DNA of 64,000 nt from a virus (lineage: Duplodnaviria > Heunggongvirae > Uroviricota > Caudoviricetes), in IMG/VR virus record IMGVR_UViG_3300028833_000126, positions 716-64,715 of that record. One strand, given 5' to 3'. This document shows, piece after piece, positions 2,132 to 47,371 of the stretch. The notes under the pieces are model-generated. The model worked only from the letters and a program-made list of their open reading frames with translations. It had not been told where the DNA came from and searched no databases. Each line of letters starts with the position of its first letter. Within the stretch, counting starts at the first letter, position 1. Position numbers and translations under genes: made by a program.

Positions 2132-5008
2132 TCAATCTAAGTATTTCACGACAGTGGAGGTTGAAATGCCGATTGCTTCTGCGATCTCGCCGTTTGTGTA
2201 ACCGGAATCCTGCATTGCCTTGATCTTCGCTATCTTAGCATCGGAGATTGAGCGTGTAGCTTTGGGTGTTGCATAATTTCGGATGACATCACCGTCTGCA
2301 TACTTCAGGATCTTCATCAGGTCATTTTCGGAGATTGCGCCGTTCTGGATTGCTTCCCACTCATCTTCGGACACAGAAATGCCGGATCGCTTTGCTCCGG
2401 TCTCTCTTCTCGCTTTCGTCAGTTCCTGCTGTGCAATCTTCTGTCGTTCTTTCTTCGACAAATCAGGATTCTCTTTTGCGATTTTGGAGATTCGTGCGTT
2501 TGCAACTAGCTGAGCTTGACGTTCTCTCGGAGCATTCTGTTCTGCGACGTTGAGCTGCGCCTGTAAGTGTTCCACTTCTTTGGCATACTTTTCGACAGCT
2601 TCTTTTGTTTTCTGAATTCTGCCAGTTGTAACGTACTCTTTTCGAGCATCGTTCGCCAAAGATTTCATGGAATTTGCGTAGTCTGCATACAGGAGCTCAA
2701 TTGGAGATCTGCCTTTGGAGACAAGCTGCATAGCATCGTCTGCTACAGCCATCTTCGTGGTCTTGATTGTACGGGTCTGGAGCTTCCCTTTGCTGTCCAC
2801 ATAGGTCTCGGGCTCCTTGCTTGTGTCCCAATACAACTTTCCCGTCTCCGGATCGATCTTCTGCATCCCCCGGTATTTCGGAACTCTGGCATCGGATTTT
2901 GCGGAAGAGATGATCGTAGCAGCACCAGTAGAGTACCGCCCATCCTCCGTATAGTGCCCCTGCCATCTGTTCTTAAGAGCGGGGATGTCGTTGTCGATCT
3001 CGGACTGTTTATAGTCCAGCTTATGCTTCGGAGCGTCGATAACAACCATGGAGTGTCGGACAGCTTTTGCAAGCTCCTCCGGACCAGCGCCCCCGATTGT
3101 CATGTCGGTAATGAGGTTAGAGACCCTCCCCATTTGCTGCTGCTTTTCGGCCTCAGACATAACTTTGAATTCATGCCCGTTGCGATAATAATGGAGATTC
3201 CCCTTATCATCCCTCCGACTCTCCGTATAACTATAATTGTCCTTCGGATCGAAGCCTTTAAGCCCCGGAAGTTCGGGAGTAGATGTAATGTTGGCCCGTC
3301 CGGAGAGCGGAATGACCATGACGGTATCCCCATCAAAGTCTGCTCCGGAGAGTCGCTCTGCAACTTTGGAGTTAATGCCTACGGCATCCATCGCATTCGG
3401 AGTGATAACTCTCTTGGCCTCCTCATTCTTGTCCGTAACCTTCAGGATCGGAATTTCGAATGTGCCCCCATGAGGATAACGAACAAGCGCTACCTTCTCG
3501 CCGGGTCGGAAATTAGGTGCATACACCTCGTCGTCCTTGAGCGAAGTGATCGGAAGGATTACCTGATAGCTCTGCCTCGGAAGTGCCGCAGCTTTCAGAT
3601 GAACAGCCGCCTTATCGCAGTCGTTTGCGAAGTTGATGAGCAGGTGCTTCTTGACTGTCGGATTGGTCAGAGCGGAGATCTCTTCGAACTCTGCCTGCTT
3701 ATCGATCTTAGCCAGCCGGAGCTGCTGCTCAACGAGCTTTCGGTTCTGTTTAGAGAGGAACTGGGACGGAAGATCGTGGCTCCACTCTCCCCAGTCGCCT
3801 TCGGCAGCGCGCTTGTTGATGACGGAGAGCTGCTTTTCACCGTTCTTATCGATGTAATATCTTTGTCCGCCCATGATAGGCGCATTCGGATCCGTCGGAT
3901 CTTCAATGCCTTCCTTGATGAGCGAGCCGAACGGGTTGTTCGGATTCTTCGTATCGATCGGCTTGAGAACACTCTTTGCGTCCTTCGTTGCACCCATCAT
4001 GGGAACAGACGAATTCTTGTTTGTGTTAAATATCAAGTCGACTCCGGGCGGAAAGTCCTTATCATCTCCGTAAACAGCCATACCCTTGATGTAATGCGTA
4101 CCATCAACAAGAATCCGGACCTGAGCATAAGTGGAGTTGCCGAGAGAAATATCTTCCGGCCCTCTCCGAATCTCAACGACACCGTCCTTGTCCTTGCCGC
4201 TCGGTTCCTGATCTGCATAACGAATCATGACACGCTTCGAATCAAGGGACTTCGGATATACCCAAGCCGGACGATACGTTTCGCCTCCGTCATCGGAGAT
4301 CATCTCGCCAACCTGACTGATTGCACCGTAGTTGTAAATATCTTTCTTCTCGGATCCGGGAGGGCACACCACCTTGAGCGTGGTCATCATGCCCTTATTC
4401 GTTGCCTGAGGAACTCGTCCGCCATAAGTCGGATAACCCTCCATCTCAAGAATCATCAGCGCATTATCAAGTGTGTTTCTCGTCACGCCGAGTCTTCGCT
4501 CAACATTCACGCCGACGTCAATCATGCCCTTGGAGTCGATTTCGGTCTTCAGATACTTTGCCGTATTGTAGGCAGAATTCATTCTCTCCTCAGACTTCGT
4601 GTTGAGAAGCGAACGGACCGTGGATTCGTTCAGTCCCATCTTCTCACCGATCTCGGTTGCACCCATTCCGCGCTCTTTCATACTCTTTGCCTGTTCAACA
4701 AGAATTGCGCGGCGATAGTTCTTTGCAACGGAGAGCTGCGAACGGAGCTTGGACGGAGACGGTTCTCCTTTGTAGTTGAGAATATCCAGCTCACGGGCAA
4801 TCTCGGACTCTGTCATACCCTTGGATTTCATCGAGTTGACACGGGAGATGAAGTCGCCGGTTCTCTGATACGGATTCTCACCAGAACCCCACGGATACCG
4901 TCCGGAGCGTCTCGGCATGCCGTAATGCTGCAAAATATCAATTTCACACTCGTCGAGGATCTCTCCCGTATGTTCATCCACGACGATGTTTTTGTCTACT
5001 TCAATCAT
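2132..5008 (-). CDS. YonO-like single-subunit RNA polymerase (two double-psi beta-barrels) with N- and C-terminal sigma-r4-like HTH modules
   Basis: beta-prime-like motif VALVRYPHGG...ITPNAMDAVG...GADFDGDTVMVIPL (compare NRAPTLHR...NADFDGDQMAVHVPL) at about aa 505-568. beta-like GGRVPQATNKGMMT (compare GRHGNKG) at aa 196-209 and PGVDLIFNTN...VPMMG. HTH repeats at aa 60-135 and aa 935-958 (GYTNGEIAEAIGISTSTVVKYL). RBS AGAGGAGGAAT. Confidence 0.6.
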   Translation of the reverse strand: MIEVDKNIVVDEHTGEILDECEIDILQHYGMPRRSGRYPWGSGENPYQRTGDFISRVNSMKSKGMTESEIARELDILNYKGEPSPSKLRSQLSVAKNYRRAILVEQAKSMKERGMGATEIGEKMGLNESTVRSLLNTKSEERMNSAYNTAKYLKTEIDSKGMIDVGVNVERRLGVTRNTLDNALMILEMEGYPTYGGRVPQATNKGMMTTLKVVCPPGSEKKDIYNYGAISQVGEMISDDGGETYRPAWVYPKSLDSKRVMIRYADQEPSGKDKDGVVEIRRGPEDISLGNSTYAQVRILVDGTHYIKGMAVYGDDKDFPPGVDLIFNTNKNSSVPMMGATKDAKSVLKPIDTKNPNNPFGSLIKEGIEDPTDPNAPIMGGQRYYIDKNGEKQLSVINKRAAEGDWGEWSHDLPSQFLSKQNRKLVEQQLRLAKIDKQAEFEEISALTNPTVKKHLLINFANDCDKAAVHLKAAALPRQSYQVILPITSLKDDEVYAPNFRPGEKVALVRYPHGGTFEIPILKVTDKNEEAKRVITPNAMDAVGINSKVAERLSGADFDGDTVMVIPLSGRANITSTPELPGLKGFDPKDNYSYTESRRDDKGNLHYYRNGHEFKVMSEAEKQQQMGRVSNLITDMTIGGAGPEELAKAVRHSMVVIDAPKHKLDYKQSEIDNDIPALKNRWQGHYTEDGRYSTGAATIISSAKSDARVPKYRGMQKIDPETGKLYWDTSKEPETYVDSKGKLQTRTIKTTKMAVADDAMQLVSKGRSPIELLYADYANSMKSLANDARKEYVTTGRIQKTKEAVEKYAKEVEHLQAQLNVAEQNAPRERQAQLVANARISKIAKENPDLSKKERQKIAQQELTKARRETGAKRSGISVSEDEWEAIQNGAISENDLMKILKYADGDVIRNYATPKATRSISDAKIAKIKAMQDSGYTNGEIAEAIGISTSTVVKYLD

Positions 5009-5568
5009 GCCGATTCCTCCTCTGTACGAATTTCTTCAATAAGATTGTCGAATTCTACGATTTTGTCCATAACGTCACGGATTGTCTGAGCAGAGGGCGT
5101 GTAGATCAGAATCTGACAGTTCTGATAAATCCTCAGCTCCATTTGAATGTCTTCCGGATCGACGTCATACTCCAAACAGAAAAGAGCCGCGTAAATATAA
5201 AGCTGCTCTTCATGTGCCGGAATAGATCCGCTCTTGTAATCATGAATGCGAAGAAAACCGTTCTCAAAGAGAATCGCGTCCGTCGTGCCGAAACAGTTGC
5301 GGGAGTAATATAAAGGCTGCTCTGCTGTCATGCCGAAGTCTACGGCATCGTTGACATACATATTGAGCGTGTCTTTCTTTCTCGCAAGTTTCTGCTTCAT
5401 GCGGATGCACTCTGCTGCGAATGCGTGTTTCTTCGATCCTTCTTCAGCCGCAAAATATCCATGGAACACTTCAGCCATCCGTGCAGGACTGTAGCGGACC
5501 CAGTGATACTTTGATGCGGAGAGGAAAGCATGCTTGCCTTCAATCTCAGAATGCTTGTTGAAGTGCAT
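5005..5568 (-). CDS. PD-(D/E)xK nuclease (Cas4/RecB-like fold)
   Basis: GTTDAILFENGFLRIHDYKSG matches the GxxD...(D/E)YK signature of the PD-(D/E)xK family; start overlaps the RNAP gene (ATGA). Confidence 0.5.
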   Translation of the reverse strand: MHFNKHSEIEGKHAFLSASKYHWVRYSPARMAEVFHGYFAAEEGSKKHAFAAECIRMKQKLARKKDTLNMYVNDAVDFGMTAEQPLYYSRNCFGTTDAILFENGFLRIHDYKSGSIPAHEEQLYIYAALFCLEYDVDPEDIQMELRIYQNCQILIYTPSAQTIRDVMDKIVEFDNLIEEIRTEEESA

Positions 5569-5851
5569 TCAGTACCTCCTCTCGGTTCTCAGGAAATATA
5601 AAGGCAGCGAATGACATGTCATTCATCTTCCCCACCCAATAGTCCTGATTCTGCCGATGACTTGCTCCAGCACTCCTTTTGCACTCGAGCATTGCCCAAT
5701 GTTCCCCATAATACATTGTAATGTCGGGGAACCCGTCCTTCAGTCCGGTTGCGTTTTTCATAACCACACAGCCGGGGAACCGCTCTTCCAGTTCATGAAT
5801 CACTTCTGACTGAAAGCGGCTCTCTTTCTTGTTTTGCCCTTTCTTTGCCAT
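5546..5851 (-). CDS. VRR-NUC domain nuclease
   Basis: GFPDITMYYGEHWAMLECKRS matches the VRR-NUC GxPD...ExK signature; RBS AAAGGAGAAAAATA. Confidence 0.55.
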   Translation of the reverse strand: MAKKGQNKKESRFQSEVIHELEERFPGCVVMKNATGLKDGFPDITMYYGEHWAMLECKRSAGASHRQNQDYWVGKMNDMSFAAFIFPENREEVLNALQQAF

Positions 5852-5912
5852 ATTTTTCTCCTTTCATGGCAAAAATATCAAGAGAAGAATAGCACTTTTT
5901 ACTTCTCCTCTC

Positions 5913-5943
5913 TCTTCATAAAAGAGAATGCATTTTTCGCGTA
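5913..5943 (-). promoter_or_regulatory. conserved promoter-like element (TCGCG-class), copy 1
   Basis: Minus strand: ACGCGAAAAATGCATTCTCTTTTATGAAG, upstream of the nuclease-RNAP operon. Confidence 0.5.
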
Positions 5944-6449
5944 AAAATCGGTCAAAAAGAAAAATGCGATGACCGATTCGCGAAGTTATCCTTTGCAACA
6001 CAGATATGACCTGCCGCCAGGAGGAACCCTGTCAGAATATCCATAATGACGGCAGATGCATACTTGTGTTGTGCGCAGCGTCGACACCACATGCAAACGC
6101 AATAGCGCCGAAGTCCAGACAAGAGACATCTATTGGGAGTTGGTCAGATTATACTGTCCGATGGTGAGGACGTGTAGGCTCGTTTAAAGAATCCCATAAA
6201 TATCAATCTGACACGGATGTCGCTGTCATATACCCGACACTCGGTGCGGTATTCAGAAAGTGACTTGGCGTGCATAGCACAGATCCTAAGATCAGTTCTG
6301 AAATATCCATGACACTACGCTGACGTTATCCGTAGAAAGGATGAAAGAACGGACAGCGTCATGTGCTTCAATCTCATTTTTATTCAAGGAGGTATTTCTG
6401 TCCGTGGAATAAAAAATAAGAGAAGAGAATAAGCACAGTTTTCTATCTT

Positions 6450-6480
6450 CTCTCATTACAGAGAATGAAATTCTCGCGAC
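6450..6480 (-). promoter_or_regulatory. conserved promoter-like element, copy 2
   Basis: GTGTCGCGAGAATTTCATTCTCTGTAATGAGAG. Confidence 0.5.
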
Positions 6481-6521
6481 ACACTTGCTCGATCTAAAAT
6501 ATCCATAGACAAAAAAAGAGA

Positions 6522-6539
6522 AGACGCTTATTCAGCGTC
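6522..6539 (-). terminator. hairpin terminator (GACGC-TTATTCA-GCGTC) plus T-tract
   Basis: Stem-loop followed on the minus strand by TTCTCTTTTTTTGTC; overlaps the 3' end of the 6528 gene. Confidence 0.5.
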
Positions 6540-6776
6540 CTCATCCTTTTCGGTTTCCGATTCGTCTTCTTCTTCCTCGGTAGTTTCTCCGTCGAAGATC
6601 TCATTCTCTTCCGTTGCTTCGTCAGCTTCCTTCGCCGCCTTGAGAGCTTTCCGCTTCTCGAGGACAGTGCCGGCGCCCATCCCAATGATGAACACCGCAG
6701 TGCCTGCGATCACTTTCGCTCCCGCTACGACGATATTCTTGCTTTCCTTCAGCACGTCGCTCATAAATTTCTTCAT
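6528..6776 (-). CDS. small membrane protein with acidic C-terminal tail
   Basis: 82-aa ORF, one TM helix then an E/D-rich tail; RBS AAAAGGAG; driven by the promoter motif at 6818-6848. Confidence 0.5.
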   Translation of the reverse strand: MKKFMSDVLKESKNIVVAGAKVIAGTAVFIIGMGAGTVLEKRKALKAAKEADEATEENEIFDGETTEEEEDESETEKDEDAE

Positions 6777-6817
6777 GGTTTAAAAACTCCTTTTTGAAAT
6801 ATAAATTTGGAATCGTG

Positions 6818-6848
6818 TTCCATTAAGACACATGAAAATTTCGCGACG
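6818..6848 (-). promoter_or_regulatory. conserved promoter-like element, copy 3
   Basis: TCGCGAAATTTTCATGTGTCTTAATGGAAC. Confidence 0.5.
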
Positions 6849-6959
6849 ACAAAATCGATCTCTAATTGCCTTGAACTACTCTCTCAGCCGTGCCAAAATA
6901 TCTTGCCGAAAACGGATCAGAGACGGATCAAAAATGCACTGAAAATCACCCCAAAAATC

Positions 6960-7270
6960 ATCGAAAAATGCCTCGTGACCAGTTGACCAGTTTTTTCGCT
7001 ATATATTTTATTTTTTAAAAATTTTCTTTTTTTATTGAAATGGGAAAAAAAAGTGGGCAACTGGTCAGGACCCCCCTGAAACCCTTGTCTTTATTGGGTT
7101 TGAGGGGTGACCACTTTTCTAAAAAAACTGGTCAGAAACTGGTCAATTGGCCAAAAATGACCACTTTTACAATTGTGTAACTCAAAAAATTCTGGCCAAA
7201 AGACCACTTTTACAAGTGTAGTTTTAAAACTTTTGGCCACGAAATTGGTCACTTTTTTACTCAAATTTTC
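6960..7270. repeat. iteron-like array: GACCACTTTTAC x4 and ACTGGTCA / TGACCAGT repeats next to an AT-rich tract
   Basis: gtgaccacttttct (7107), atgaccacttttac (7160), agaccacttttacaag (7207), tggtcactttttta (7248); gaccagttgaccag (6977), aactggtcag (7060), actggtcagaaactggtcaattggcc (7129); AT-rich run at 7000-7050. Confidence 0.5.
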
Positions 7271-7558
7271 ACTAAATTTTTTCGCCATGAAAAGTGCAAA
7301 ATATCACGCCCAAATCCTCAACTAATTTTCGAGATCTAACCTAGAATAGCGCCGCCATTTCCCCTGTTCAAAATATCAACCTGACCCGCGTCGCACACTT
7401 CGAAATTTTACTCTAACAACTTAGAGTATTGTATTTCTCGGAGCGAATGAGAGTCGAATTCTGAGCCTGTCCTGCGCCAGACACTCACCGCAGACCCAAG
7501 CAATGAATCAAAAAGAAAGAGCCAACGCTTAAGTCGCGTCGACCCAATCTCGTAAGTC

Positions 7559-7906
7559 TCACAACTCAACCACACCACTCTTAATGGCTTTTTTGATGTC
7601 ATATAAGAATGCTTCATATGCCCATATGCTTTTATACTGTGTTTCAAGATATGTCTCTTCTGATATAAACTCAAAGAACGGATACGGGATCCCAAGCATC
7701 TTGCGAATTCTGAAGCAAAGCAGACACCATCTGAACAGCCATTTAGCGTCTTTACGCTTAAACAGCGGCACAATATAGTTACTGTCTCCTCCAAAGTTTT
7801 CACAAAGCTGCTTGAACATCTGCGTACCTTTCCAGTCACAGAGAAGAATCTGTAACTCATTAATATAAATTGCCTGTTCATATGCCAGTTTGTCATTCCG
7901 TTTCAT
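7559..7906 (-). CDS. hypothetical protein
   Basis: 115-aa ORF with RBS AAAGGAGATTGAG; preferred over the overlapping 162-aa frame, which is Cys/Arg/Ser-rich. Confidence 0.5.
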   Translation of the reverse strand: MKRNDKLAYEQAIYINELQILLCDWKGTQMFKQLCENFGGDSNYIVPLFKRKDAKWLFRWCLLCFRIRKMLGIPYPFFEFISEETYLETQYKSIWAYEAFLYDIKKAIKSGVVEL

Positions 7907-10957: not shown

Positions 10958-11030
10958 TAGGGGCGAAGGGACTCGAACCCTCAACCAACTGCGTATAAGA
11001 CAGGTGCTCTAACCATTGCGCTACGCCCCG
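10958..11030 (-). tRNA. tRNA with anticodon UAU (reads AUA, Ile-type), phage-encoded
   Basis: Minus-strand cloverleaf: acceptor GGGGCG/CGCCCC, D-arm GCGC-AATGGTTA-GAGC, anticodon stem CCTGT/GCAGT with loop CTTATAC (TAT at plus 10995-10997), T-arm GAGGG-TTCGAGT-CCCTT. A few mismatches, no encoded CCA. Confidence 0.55.
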
Positions 11031-28365: not shown

Positions 28366-29542
28366 AATATCTACTCGATACATAGTCTTGTTCGTTGAAC
28401 TGCTTCTTCTCCTTGAGCGCCCGCTTGATCGCAACATCAATCCCGGCAAAAGAACGAAGATGGAAGTAGTACAAAATATCATACGGCGTGTTGCGTCTGT
28501 CAATTCGGCCCGTCGCTTGCTTCAGTGTCTTGTAGGAATAATTCTGCGAGTAGAAGATCGTTGTATCCGTTGTGATGCAATTCCATCCCTCAGCTCCTGC
28601 GCTGTATTGAGACAGATATACCCAAGAGTCACCGCTGAGAGTTCTGACATCTTCGTGCTTATGTCCGTTCCACTCTGCATACATGATTCCTCGCTCTTCA
28701 CAGAAATTCCGAAGAATCTCAAGCTCGTAGTCGAAGTTATAAAATATAATAGCTTTCGGATGCTTCTTAAGTATCTTCTCAAGAGCCTCTACCCTGCTTG
28801 GATCGCTGTTGCAGACTTTTCTCTGTGCATAGCATAGCTCACCGGCAGTGTCAATTGGCTCACACTTCCAAGGATTCCACATGTCACGAGCAAGGCTTTT
28901 GTACTTCAAAATATCATACTCAACCATGACATCCTCATGCTTGCTCTCTGTTCGCTTTTTGTAGTCCATCTTCACGAGAATCTGATTGCGATATCGTTTC
29001 AGTTTATCCTGCTCGAGATACCTGTCAATCTTCGGAAAATTTGTGAACTGAGAATAGACGATATGCTCATGGACGAACTGAGTGCGATTCTTATAAAAGC
29101 CGTTCGCAATGAAAACCGGAATATAGTCTTTCCACGTGTCTCCCGGAGTTGCTGACAAGAGAATCCATCGGTTCTTCTTCACGATCTTGAGAAAACACTT
29201 CACCCAAGCTCCTGATCCTACAACACGCTGCTCATCAAATATAAAGAATGCGTCGGAGACACCGACGTATTTCTCAATGTTATTCCATGAGTCAACGACA
29301 ATGTCTCCGACAAACGGCATTCCAAACGGCTCACATTCCTCAGGCCACTCCTTCGTATCACGCTTCTTTGCAGTTGTGATAATATAAAGCGGCATCGAAG
29401 ACCCATGCTCACGGAAGTCTTTCTCGTAGTATGCAAGAGCTGTACGAGACTTTCCGGAACCAACGTCCCCGCAAAGAATGCAGCCGTTTTTCATTCGATT
29501 TACGGCGTCAATCTGATAGTCATCAAGAATTACATTCGGCAT
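28340..29542 (-). CDS. SF2 ATP-dependent helicase (DEAD/SNF2-like)
   Basis: Walker A GDVGSGKSRTAL, DExx box IFDEQ, motif VI QATGRIDRR. Confidence 0.65.
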   Translation of the reverse strand: MPNVILDDYQIDAVNRMKNGCILCGDVGSGKSRTALAYYEKDFREHGSSMPLYIITTAKKRDTKEWPEECEPFGMPFVGDIVVDSWNNIEKYVGVSDAFFIFDEQRVVGSGAWVKCFLKIVKKNRWILLSATPGDTWKDYIPVFIANGFYKNRTQFVHEHIVYSQFTNFPKIDRYLEQDKLKRYRNQILVKMDYKKRTESKHEDVMVEYDILKYKSLARDMWNPWKCEPIDTAGELCYAQRKVCNSDPSRVEALEKILKKHPKAIIFYNFDYELEILRNFCEERGIMYAEWNGHKHEDVRTLSGDSWVYLSQYSAGAEGWNCITTDTTIFYSQNYSYKTLKQATGRIDRRNTPYDILYYFHLRSFAGIDVAIKRALKEKKQFNEQDYVSSRYSSRKFHAV

Positions 29543-29732
29543 TATTCTCCTTTGCCCTCATCTTCTTGAAGCACGTCTTTGTCCCAGTACACTTTTCCTT
29601 TGTGCAGTTGAGACAAATATCAATCTTTGCTTGATTTGGCTTACGGCCATTTCTTACTTTGCGATCCTGATAGTTGCTGTAGGACTGTCCATGTACCATG
29701 CCATCCTTTGCAAGATCTCTCTTGAATCCCAT
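29523..29732 (-). CDS. small Cys-rich basic protein
   Basis: 69 aa, CLNCTKEKCTGTKTC. Confidence 0.4.
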   Translation of the reverse strand: MGFKRDLAKDGMVHGQSYSNYQDRKVRNGRKPNQAKIDICLNCTKEKCTGTKTCFKKMRAKENNAECNS

Positions 29733-47310: not shown

Positions 47311-47341
47311 AAATATAAAAGAGGAATAACATTTTCATACC

Positions 47342-47371
47342 CCTCTCATTAAATAGAATGTTTTCTACGCG
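47342..47371 (-). promoter_or_regulatory. conserved promoter-like element, copy 17
   Basis: TCGCGTAGAAAACATTCTATTTAATGAGAGGG. Confidence 0.5.

What the first reader, a model, noticed from the sequence alone, without database searches (positions are those of the whole stretch)
5855..6500. Two paralogous promoter-hairpin cassettes bracketing a 450-bp ORF-free, GC-normal segment
Near-duplicate 65-70-nt units at 5861-5945 and 6411-6485 each contain the promoter motif followed within about 5 nt by the hairpin AGAGAAGA...TCTTCTCT and a U-tract. This is a promoter that runs straight into a terminator, in an attenuator or short-RNA arrangement. Between the two units lies about 450 bp with no ORF of 60 aa or more and higher GC than the surroundings. 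This lies directly upstream of the nuclease-RNAP operon. The segment could encode a regulatory RNA or an antitermination-controlled leader that governs RNAP expression.
Basis: seen in the sequence. Interest (0 to 1): 0.55.

Follow-up and report, generated by a model that had tools for sequence, protein, structure and literature searches.

The report
Duplicated promoter-hairpin leader before phage polymerase operon
Two copies of a phage promoter that runs straight into a terminator-like hairpin are real: one is a widely conserved leader of a nuclease/RNA-polymerase operon, and the other heads a 450-base non-coding, strongly folding segment found only in this phage lineage.

Summary
A 25-nt motif (CGCG-N16-TWATR) occurs 17 times, all on the minus strand (1 expected), each upstream of a ribosome site and start codon. 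At three sites it is followed directly by a long purine/pyrimidine-armed hairpin and a T-tract: unit A (6478-6405), unit B (5941-5868), and a third cassette near 47371-47315.

Unit B is not a local oddity. In 38 of 80 non-redundant related loci, the VRR-NUC/Cas4/RdRP-like polymerase operon has a hairpin plus T-tract starting -5 to +10 nt from a -10-like box. The stem sequences differ between loci.

The 450-nt segment has no conserved ORF. It folds unusually well on the minus strand only, and it diverges more slowly than nearby non-coding DNA. It exists only in one narrow lineage, so covariation cannot be tested. Relatives carry a small gene, a tRNA or an antisense mini-ORF in the same slot.

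Best reading: a promoter-proximal attenuator cassette, duplicated in front of an accessory non-coding RNA candidate. A 5'-stabiliser hairpin is the main rival. No transcript data exist.

The parts
6520..6542 (-). Canonical intrinsic terminator of the upstream 82-aa membrane/acidic-tail gene (6776-6528). It sits about 25 nt upstream of unit A.
   Evidence: Terminator scan. Fold dG -15.3, z -4.9.
6454..6478 (-). Unit A promoter-like motif, CGCGAGAATTTCATTCTCTGTAATG.
   Evidence: One of 17 minus-strand hits of CGCG-N16-TWATR against 1.06 expected. 0 of 74 substitutions across unit A in two diverged relatives.
6408..6457 (-). Unit A hairpin (6457-6415; arms AAUGAGAGAAGA / UCUUCUCUUAUU) plus its U-rich tail. 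The 5' arm starts inside the TAAT box.
   Evidence: Fold dG -12.4, z -2.2. Custom hairpin/T-tract scan.
5992..6404 (-). Non-coding, GC-normal, strongly folding segment. It is a candidate body of an RNA of about 0.58 kb running from unit A to the unit B hairpin. It contains a perfect anti-Shine-Dalgarno string, ACCUCCUU, at 6393-6386.
   Evidence: No conserved ORF, and no gene called on the source contig. z -4.26 on the minus strand against -1.27 on the plus strand. Only 2 of 54 control windows score lower. Diverges 1.7-4.8% against 19-21% in nearby non-coding DNA. No Rfam match.
5929..5992 (-). Inverted repeat (CGCGAAUCGGUCA ... UGACCGAUU..CGCG) that includes the upstream half of the unit B promoter motif.
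   Evidence: Hairpin dG -17.9 in the scan. Also visible in the fold of the whole RNA.
5917..5941 (-). Unit B promoter-like motif, CGCGAAAAATGCATTCTCTTTTATG. This is the TTATG variant shared by many VRR-NUC loci.
   Evidence: 100% identical in L002, L025 and L089.
5868..5914 (-). Unit B hairpin (5914-5880) plus the tail GAUAUUUUUGCC. It is the conserved leader element of the nuclease/polymerase operon.
   Evidence: Fold dG -14.3, z -2.1. The same architecture is found in 38 of 80 related loci.
2132..5864 (-). Downstream operon. Ribosome site AAAGGAG at 5864-5858, VRR-NUC-like endonuclease at 5851-5546, Cas4/PD-(D/E)XK exonuclease at 5568-5005, and a 958-aa RdRP-like protein with a DFDGD motif and HTH domains at 5008-2132.
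   Evidence: Pfam. PHROGs phrog_93, phrog_3953 and phrog_4291, the last with E=0. Similar FP_oengus genes.
47315..47371 (-). Third promoter-hairpin-T-tract cassette, CGCGTAGAAAACATTCTATTTAATG followed by a hairpin of dG -14. A second -10-like box and a 72-aa gene follow it.

Best explanation
Units A and B are two paralogous copies of a phage 'leader cassette': a phage-specific promoter whose first 35-50 transcribed bases form a purine/pyrimidine-armed hairpin followed by a U-tract. This is a promoter-proximal, terminator-like attenuator.

Unit B is the ancestral, widely conserved leader of the VRR-NUC / Cas4 / RdRP-like polymerase operon. Unit A is a duplicate that heads a lineage-specific, constrained, highly structured non-coding segment of about 450 nt.

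Proposed mechanism:
- A polymerase starting at the motif makes the hairpin and U-tract almost at once, and part of the transcripts end as RNAs of about 40-50 nt.
- Read-through expresses what lies downstream. It could come from leak, from an antitermination factor, or from a terminator-insensitive polymerase.
- Read-through at unit A would give an RNA of about 0.58 kb that ends at the unit B hairpin.
- Read-through at unit B gives the nuclease/polymerase mRNA.

Shown: the sequence architecture, its statistical excess, its conservation across phages, the lack of coding capacity, and the folding and constraint of the segment.

Inferred: promoter activity, the start site, termination, read-through control, and the existence of the RNA.
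For: Promoter-like motif:
- 17 of 17 hits are on the coding strand (1.06 expected), each upstream of a ribosome site and start codon, and often right after a terminator.

Hairpins:
- A long hairpin plus T-tract follows the motif at only 3 of the 17 sites, so it is gene-specific.
- Both hairpins fold (dG -12.4 and -14.3) and have U-rich tails.
- Both are invariant in relatives in which neighbouring non-coding DNA differs by 12-35%.

Conservation of the unit B architecture:
- 38 of 80 non-redundant loci carry it, at 42-100% VRR-NUC identity. They include FP_oengus and an Oscillospiraceae prophage.
- The hairpin plus T-tract starts -5 to +10 nt from a -10-like box. 5' arms are purine-rich. Inner stems have unrelated sequences, for example a 19-bp perfect stem in L080.
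- Hairpins with dG of -10 or lower occur in 54% of real upstream regions against 26% of shuffled ones.
- Several loci (L001, L003, L073, and the window's unit A) have a separate strong terminator just upstream of the promoter. The leader hairpin is therefore not needed to stop upstream transcription.

The segment:
- Minus-strand ORFs are broken by indels in L089 or L002. The ORFs that stay intact carry only non-synonymous changes and have no ribosome site.
- The whole 585-nt RNA folds with z -6.6, and the L089 version with z -8.7.
- The folding signal is strand-asymmetric.
- The segment diverges more slowly than nearby non-coding DNA (p 1.5e-6 and 1.8e-12). Against L002 it also diverges more slowly than third codon positions (p 5.6e-5).
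Against: - There are no transcript data, so the start site is unknown.
- With sigma-A geometry the start would fall 6-8 nt after the TAAT box, inside the 5' arm. That would shorten the hairpin.
- The stems are A/U- and G/U-rich with long loops, and the classical terminator scan did not call them.
- The unit B U-tract is separated from the stem by GAUA.
- In L061/L062 a tRNA-Met gene lies between the cassette and VRR-NUC. In L098, 435 nt lie there. Read-through must therefore be common.
- Nine other promoters carry a short GGAA-N4-5-TTCC mini-hairpin at the same place. That fits a general 5' stem-loop design rather than termination.
- The motif is an atypical sigma-A promoter: the would-be -11 base is A in only 7 of 17 copies, and the -35 region is weak.
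- For the segment there are only three sequence variants and no compensatory double change.
- 2 of 54 control windows fold as well as the segment.
- No homologue was found outside one narrow lineage.
Confidence: 0.45

Rival explanations
1. The hairpins are 5'-terminal stabiliser stem-loops, not terminators. Transcripts would begin at or just before the purine-rich arm, and the stem-loop at the extreme 5' end would protect the mRNA from 5'-end-dependent RNases. This is the role of the T7 phi10 leader and of the ompA, aprE and SP82 stabilisers. The A/U-rich run before the ribosome site would help translation.
For: - The hairpin begins immediately after the TAAT box in nearly all loci.
- 9 of the other 14 promoters in the window have a mini-hairpin, too weak to terminate, at the same place, followed by an AT-rich stretch and the ribosome site.
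- Genes and a tRNA downstream must be expressed through the element.
- The motif's invariant TAATG with a variable '-11' base would fit a phage-type promoter that starts at the following G.
Against: - A stabiliser needs neither a U-tract nor a very strong stem. Yet a T-rich run directly follows the 3' arm in most loci (5-8 T in 9 nt), and stems reach dG -20 to -28.
- Only 3 of 17 promoters in the window have the long form.
Confidence: 0.25
2. The hairpins are insulating terminators for transcription arriving from upstream, overlapping the next promoter. The 5' arm would lie at -10 to +1, so transcripts that start at the local promoter lack the base of the stem and escape. Read-through transcripts from upstream form the full hairpin and stop.
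For: - The stem starts -5 to +3 nt from the -10-like box in about two-thirds of the loci. That is upstream of a sigma-A-type start site.
- Unit B would then end the RNA that starts at unit A.
- In several loci the upstream gene stops about 45 nt before the promoter with no terminator of its own (for example L038).
Against: - Several loci, and unit A itself, have a dedicated strong terminator just upstream of the promoter.
- With long stems the truncated transcript still forms 7-14 bp followed by a U-rich run (L058, L080), so escape is not guaranteed.
Confidence: 0.15
3. The 450-nt segment is non-functional. It would be the decayed remnant of a gene or accessory insert trapped when the promoter cassette was duplicated or exchanged by recombination at conserved regulatory boundaries. 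Its good folding and low divergence would reflect recent common ancestry, not selection.
For: - The segment is restricted to one narrow lineage of rumen-type metagenome contigs.
- Relatives carry unrelated content in the same slot: a 65-aa gene in L003, an unannotated 125-aa ORF in FP_oengus, tRNA-Met in L062 and an antisense mini-ORF in L098.
- There is no compensatory change.
- 2 of 54 control windows fold equally well.
- A stray plus-strand ribosome site (AAGGAGGT, 6386-6393) has no ORF behind it.
Against: - The segment diverges 4-12 times more slowly than adjacent non-coding DNA and no faster than third codon positions.
- The folding z-score is strand-specific and is kept or improved in the most diverged copy.
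- No trace of protein similarity was found by tblastx.
Confidence: 0.3
4. The elements act at the DNA level. They could be operators or cruciforms bound by a regulator, hairpin promoters for the phage polymerase as in N4, or part of a replication origin next to the repeat-rich region at 6870-7520.
For: - A palindrome overlaps the unit B promoter (5992-5929).
- A repeat-rich, low-GC region lies 400 nt upstream.
- The polymerase carries HTH domains.
Against: - Loops of 5-30 nt and unrelated stem sequences between phages fit RNA structure better than protein-binding dyads.
- The T-tract lies on one side only, so the element is strand-specific.
- N4 promoter hairpins have 3-nt loops and conserved sequence (my own knowledge).
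Confidence: 0.07

Closest known systems
Lambdoid late control: pR' promoter, short 6S transcript ended at tR', Q antitermination
   Same: A promoter is followed closely by an intrinsic terminator at the head of a long operon, so that productive expression depends on read-through.
   Different: Here the hairpin starts at about +1, so the aborted RNA would be about 40-50 nt rather than 194 nt. No Q homologue, Q-binding element or sigma-dependent pause has been looked for or seen. The operon encodes nucleases and a polymerase, not lysis or structural genes. The hosts are Oscillospiraceae-type Firmicutes.
5'-terminal stabiliser stem-loops (T7 phi10 leader; ompA, aprE and SP82 5' stabilisers; STAB-SD)
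   Same: A stem-loop at the very start of the transcript, then an A/U-rich stretch and a Shine-Dalgarno site. The arms are purine-rich and Shine-Dalgarno-like.
   Different: These elements have a U-tract directly after the stem and often very strong stems. The long form is present at only 3 of 17 promoters.
Large structured phage-associated non-coding RNAs (GOLLD, ROOL, HEARO) and other Rfam families
   Same: A non-coding stretch of several hundred nt in a phage, with a strong predicted fold and its own promoter and terminator.
   Different: There is no match to any of the 4227 Rfam models. There is no covariation support, and the segment is confined to one lineage.
SPbeta YonO late operon
   Same: A phage single-chain polymerase of the two-barrel kind. 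In SPbeta the YonO-dependent transcript starts upstream of an unannotated non-coding RNA (PMC5467207).
   Different: The relation of the 958-aa protein to YonO rests only on the DFDGD motif, a weak Pfam RdRP hit and a PHROG name. The YonO promoter is undefined, so no comparison of signals is possible.

Membership tests
Intrinsic (Rho-independent) terminator | A stable stem-loop in the RNA. | tested here: met
   dG -12.4 (unit A) and -14.3 (unit B), z about -2.1 to -2.2.
Intrinsic (Rho-independent) terminator | A short G+C-rich stem with a loop of 3-8 nt (the classical consensus). | tested here: not met
   The consensus scan of 5000-7600 reports the terminator at 6542-6520 but neither unit. The stems are A/U- and G/U-rich and interrupted by unpaired bases, and the unit A terminal loop is 11 nt.
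Intrinsic (Rho-independent) terminator | A U-tract immediately 3' of the stem. | tested here: met
   Unit A has UUUUAUU directly after the stem. Unit B has GAUAUUUUUG, that is a 4-nt spacer and a weaker tract. Related loci have 5-8 T in the 9 nt after the stem.
Intrinsic (Rho-independent) terminator | RNA 3' ends generated at the U-tract. | not testable with these tools
   No transcript data are available.
Sigma-A / sigma-70 type promoter | A -10 hexamer with conserved A at -11 and T at -7, and a -35 TTGACA at 16-18 bp. | tested here: inconclusive
   The hexamer ending in TAAT is a perfect TATAAT in 7 of 17 copies, but the -11 base varies (A 7, T 6, G 3, C 1). The best -35 is TTG(T/A)CG at 16 bp. 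The consensus scan did not call units A or B.
Sigma-A / sigma-70 type promoter | Position and orientation expected of a promoter. | tested here: met
   17 of 17 copies are on the coding strand, upstream of a ribosome site and start codon, and many come directly after a terminator.
Q-type promoter-proximal antitermination module | A Q-family protein, a Q-binding element in the promoter, and a sigma-dependent early pause. | not tested
   The window's proteins were not screened for antiterminators. Only the promoter-plus-early-terminator layout is seen.
Known RNA family (Rfam 15) | A score at or above the gathering threshold of a covariance model. | tested here: not met
   The only hit in the window is tRNA-Ile at 10958-11030. 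Nothing credible appears in 5700-7500 even at E up to 10.
Structured non-coding RNA gene (generic) | Folding energy beyond the composition-matched expectation, specific to one strand. | tested here: met
   z -4.26 on the minus strand against -1.27 on the plus strand for the 455-nt core. z -6.6 and -8.7 for the whole RNA in the window and L089. 2 of 54 control windows score as low.
Structured non-coding RNA gene (generic) | Compensatory base-pair changes across homologues. | tested here: inconclusive
   There are three variants and 23 substitutions. 8 of 13 changes at paired sites keep pairing through G-U, and none changes both sides.
Protein-coding gene in the segment | An ORF kept open with synonymous-biased change and a ribosome site. 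| tested here: not met
   The 35-, 43- and 54-aa ORFs are broken in L089 or L002. The ORFs that stay intact show only non-synonymous changes and have no ribosome site. The gene caller left a 677-nt gap on the source contig.

The most novel reading that the evidence does not exclude
The cassette could be a polymerase-selective gate conserved across a large group of gut, rumen and soil siphophages. The host multisubunit RNA polymerase would stop at the promoter-proximal hairpin plus U-tract. The phage's own single-chain RdRP-like polymerase lacks the flap domain needed for hairpin-dependent termination, so it would read through, giving an autocatalytic switch for the nuclease/polymerase module.

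In this lineage the duplicated cassette would additionally drive a new structured RNA of about 0.58 kb. Its paralogous arms (unit A 3' arm with unit B 5' arm) or its exposed anti-Shine-Dalgarno string could tune read-through or translation of that operon.
Probability: 0.1. Interest if true: 0.75.

Novelty: new variant of a known kind. Interest (0 to 1): 0.45.

Why it matters
Regulation of phages that carry single-chain two-barrel RNA polymerases is almost unknown; even the YonO promoter is undefined. A hairpin plus U-tract placed right at the start of the transcript and kept across dozens of diverged phages in front of the polymerase operon is a concrete control point that can be tested. Candidate experiments are in vitro transcription with host and phage polymerase, and Term-seq. 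It also marks a variable slot in which these phages keep accessory RNAs and mini-genes. The 450-nt segment itself is a lineage-restricted RNA candidate of modest general importance unless a function is shown.

Tried and rejected
- Rfam with gathering thresholds on the whole window, and at E up to 10 on 5700-7500: nothing in the region.
- tRNA/tmRNA scan: only tRNA-Ile at 10958-11030.
- Blastn against 50,697 phage records: only the nuclease genes match, not the segment.
- Blastn, tblastx and an nhmmer profile of the segment against all 99 fetched loci and the rest of the window: no homologue outside the window/L002/L089 lineage, no protein-like similarity and no paralogue.
- An exact 22-mer from the segment in viral contigs: only the L002 contig.
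- Small-ORF hypothesis: rejected.
- Covariation on three variants: no power.
- A type I toxin-like gene on the opposite strand, as seen in prophage L098: none found in the window.
- PDB sequence search with the 958-aa protein: no hit.
- Literature: the YonO paper gives no promoter or termination data that could be applied. Nothing was found on regulation of FP_oengus-like phages.
- N4-type hairpin promoter: rejected because of loop size and the lack of conserved stem sequence.
- Leaderless mini-ORF starting at the ATG of TAATG/TTATG: rejected because many relatives have TATAATAG there.

Full report
**Setting.** Nearly all genes in the window lie on the minus strand, so the finding has to be read right to left. 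The nuclease genes resemble those of Faecalibacterium phage FP_oengus. A related prophage sits in an Oscillospiraceae genome. An identical VRR-NUC gene, with the same 677-nt gene-free gap upstream, lies on an 81.8-kb metagenome contig (L095).

Read on the minus strand, the order of features is as follows:
- an 82-aa membrane/acidic-tail gene (6776-6528) with its own canonical terminator (6542-6520);
- unit A;
- about 450 nt without a gene;
- unit B;
- the ribosome site AAAGGAG and the ATG at 5851 of a VRR-NUC-like endonuclease;
- a Cas4/PD-(D/E)XK exonuclease (5568-5005);
- a 958-aa protein (5008-2132).

The 958-aa protein carries a DFDGD motif, several HTH domains and a weak Pfam RdRP hit. 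It matches PHROG 4291 'RNA-dependent RNA polymerase' over its full length with E=0. It has no sequence relative in the PDB. Calling it an RNA polymerase therefore rests on annotation-level evidence.

- Unit A is the motif CGCGAGAATTTCATTCTCTGTAATG (6478-6454), a hairpin at 6457-6415 (dG -12.4) and the tail UUUUAUU.
- Unit B is CGCGAAAAATGCATTCTCTTTTATG (5941-5917), a hairpin at 5914-5880 (dG -14.3) and the tail GAUAUUUUUG.
- The two units are 74% identical over 73 nt.
- The arm pair GAGAAG...CTTCTC is over-represented: 3 copies against 0.25 expected, and two of them are these units.
- The segment has no ORF of 60 aa or more.
- Its GC is 0.459, against 0.33-0.34 in the units and 0.39 in the neighbouring non-coding DNA.

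**The 'promoter motif'.**
- With fixed spacing, CGCG-N16-TWATR occurs 17 times, all on the minus strand, against 1.06 expected.
- Every copy lies upstream of a ribosome site and start codon, and many come directly after a terminator. That is strong positional evidence for a promoter.
- Its class is unclear. The invariant bases are CGCG, CA(T) and TAATG.
- The base that would be -11 of a sigma-A -10 box is A in only 7 of 17 copies. The best -35 is TTG(T/A)CG at 16 bp. The consensus promoter scan did not call the units.
- A phage-specific factor or the phage polymerase may read the motif. The start site is therefore unknown, and that limits every mechanistic statement below.

**Which promoters carry the hairpin.**
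- Only three of the 17 are followed at once by a long hairpin plus T-tract: units A and B and a third cassette at about 47371-47315 (dG -14). A second -10-like box and a 72-aa gene follow the third cassette.
- Nine others have a short GGAA-N4-5-TTCC mini-hairpin at the same place, followed by an AT-rich stretch and the ribosome site.

**Unit B is a conserved element.** I collected 99 related loci from viral contigs, metagenomes and genomes.
- In 38 of 80 non-redundant loci, with VRR-NUC identity of 42-100%, the gene is preceded by a hairpin (dG -7 or lower) plus T-tract. The stem starts -5 to +10 nt from a -10-like hexamer, with a median of about +2.
- The 5' arm is purine-rich. There are 5-8 T in the 9 nt after the stem (sequences).
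- Outer arms tend to read AGAGAAG / CTTCTCT. Inner stems are unrelated between loci: GGAATATACGC/GCGTATATTCC in L080, GAGGATG/CATCCTC in L044 and GGGAATAG/CTATTCC in FP_oengus. The structure is kept, not the sequence.
- Hairpins of dG -10 or lower occur in 54% of real upstream regions against 26% of dinucleotide shuffles.
- Because purine and pyrimidine tracts pair easily by chance, I did not treat pair counts as a formal covariation test.

**The slot behind the cassette is variable.**
- L003 (75% VRR-NUC identity) has a 65-aa membrane-protein gene with its own promoter and terminator where the window has the segment.
- FP_oengus has a repeat-rich region and an unannotated ORF of about 125 aa there.
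- L061 and L062 have a tRNA-Met gene between the cassette and VRR-NUC.
- Prophage L098 has the cassette, then 435 nt containing an opposite-strand 35-aa hydrophobic ORF, then VRR-NUC with no second cassette.
- The downstream genes and the tRNA must therefore be transcribed through the hairpin plus T-tract, at least part of the time.

**The 450-nt segment.**
- It is present only in the window/L095, in L002/L024/L025/L097 (98% identity) and in L089 (94.7%).
- It is non-coding. The 35-, 43- and 54-aa minus-strand ORFs are broken by indels in L089 or L002.
- The ORFs that stay open show only non-synonymous changes and lack a ribosome site. The gene caller on the source contig called nothing there.
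- It folds much better than composition predicts, and only on the minus strand. The core has z -4.26 against -1.27. The whole 585-nt RNA has z -6.6. The most diverged copy, L089, has z -8.7 with the same helices.
- Among 54 control windows of equal size, the mean z was -1.0 (sd 1.6), and two were as low or lower. This evidence is suggestive, not decisive.
- It diverges by 4.8% (L089) and 1.7% (L002). Non-coding DNA 500 nt upstream diverges by 19-21%, and third codon positions of the 82-aa gene by 8.6-12.5%. Unit A shows 0 changes in 74 nt (Fisher tests). Mosaic recombination could inflate the contrast with the upstream region.
- There is no compensatory double substitution among the 23 variable sites.
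- Rfam, blastn, tblastx and nhmmer find no relative.

**Mechanism.** I rank a promoter-proximal attenuator first. My reasons:
- A T-rich run directly follows the 3' arm in most loci.
- Stems are often far stronger than a 5' protective hairpin needs.
- The long form is gene-specific.
- Several loci, and unit A itself, already have a dedicated terminator just upstream of the promoter. The leader hairpin is therefore not needed as an insulator.
- With long stems, even a transcript that starts 7 nt after the TAAT box keeps 7-14 bp followed by U-rich sequence (L058, L080).

The main rival is a 5'-terminal stabiliser stem-loop of the T7 phi10 kind. Two observations favour it: the mini-hairpins at other promoters, and the need to read through to a tRNA or to the operon.

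A third reading is a terminator whose 5' arm overlaps -10 to +1, so that only transcripts from upstream are stopped. It fits the geometry but not the loci that have an extra upstream terminator.

DNA-level readings (operator, N4-like hairpin promoter, origin) fit worst.

For the segment, the rival is a decayed insert kept by recent ancestry.

**Comparison with known systems.** The layout works like the lambdoid pR'-tR' arrangement, a promoter followed closely by a terminator that gates an operon. It is not shown to belong to that system, because no Q protein, Q-binding element or pause was examined. It also resembles 5' stabiliser leaders. It matches no Rfam family.

The YonO paper reports that the SPbeta polymerase starts upstream of an unannotated non-coding RNA. 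It also notes that the flap domain, absent from YonO, is needed for hairpin-dependent termination. That inspires the speculative 'polymerase-selective gate' reading but does not test it.

**Verdict.**
The cassette is a real and conserved regulatory leader.
- The segment is an accessory, probably functional non-coding element. It is not the conserved leader of the polymerase operon.
- Novelty: a new variant of known kinds of element.
- Interest is moderate.

Noticed in passing
whole window, minus strand: The hexamer GATATT occurs 148 times on the minus strand and 6 times on the plus strand (GATATTY 127 against 4; TTATATT 49 against 0). 91 of the 127 lie inside genes, 62 of them in frame 0 (Asp-Ile). 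23 of 103 genes have it within 60 nt upstream of the start, against 11.6 expected. It also sits 4-5 nt upstream of many CGCG promoter motifs, in the unit B tail, and before the VRR-NUC ribosome site in many distant loci. This is a strand-specific genome-wide signal of unknown function. From memory, GATATT is the -10 box of SPO1 late promoters.
   Followed up: partly
window 6870-7520: A low-GC (0.34-0.39), ORF-poor region full of direct and inverted copies of TGACCAGTT / AAAAACTGGTCA. Analogous repeat arrays (TGGCCAAAAA..., TGGGCA...) lie at the same place in FP_oengus, L003 and L089. It may be an origin or a regulator-binding array. It diverges by about 20% between close relatives.
   Followed up: partly
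window 47315-47371: A third promoter-hairpin-T-tract cassette, right after the terminator at 47413-47377. It is followed by a second box, TGTTATAAT (extended -10-like), and a 72-aa gene (47244-47026).
   Followed up: partly
window, after the promoter motifs ending at 6821, 10920, 26024, 33543, 44900, 46471, 47638 and others: A short GGAA/GGGA-N3-5-TTCC/TCCT mini-hairpin or dyad lies immediately after TAATG in about 9 of 17 promoters, followed by AAATTTATATTT-type sequence and the ribosome site.
   Followed up: partly
window 29250-29705 and 7400-7855 (minus strand): These were the two control windows with very low folding z-scores (-7.07 and -4.5). The first overlaps the end of a 400-aa ORF and the next gene. 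I did not examine them further.
   Followed up: no
L098 2803-2911 and 2193-2279 (opposite strand): A prophage in an Oscillospiraceae genome carries two small hydrophobic ORFs with basic C-termini, each with a ribosome site: MTFDIQLVFDFVQTVCEVVSALATVVACVMQIRKR and MTELIGIIMLVLSLIQTVVAVLNYISRR. They are type I toxin-like. One lies antisense to transcription from the promoter-hairpin cassette.
   Followed up: partly
L061 and L062 2900-2976: A tRNA-Met (CAT) gene is inserted between the promoter-hairpin cassette and the VRR-NUC gene. L039 and L042 have a tRNA-like 3' half (GGTTCGAATCCCAC) at the same place, but ARAGORN called no tRNA there.
   Followed up: partly
L001 about 6869-7243 (FP_oengus, gap between gp52 and gp53): The annotated 870-bp gap upstream of the FP_oengus endonuclease contains an unannotated ORF of about 125 aa with CxxC pairs and a ribosome site, plus its own terminator.
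   Followed up: no
window 10958-11030: tRNA-Ile (anticodon TAT) on the minus strand. A promoter motif (10944-10920) and the next gene follow it directly.
   Followed up: no
window 5868-6452 (predicted RNA): In the minimum-energy fold of the 585-nt RNA, the unit A 5' arm pairs with the unit B 3' arm and the unit A 3' arm pairs with the unit B 5' arm, forming a panhandle. The paralogous arms could thus compete with the two local hairpins.
   Followed up: no
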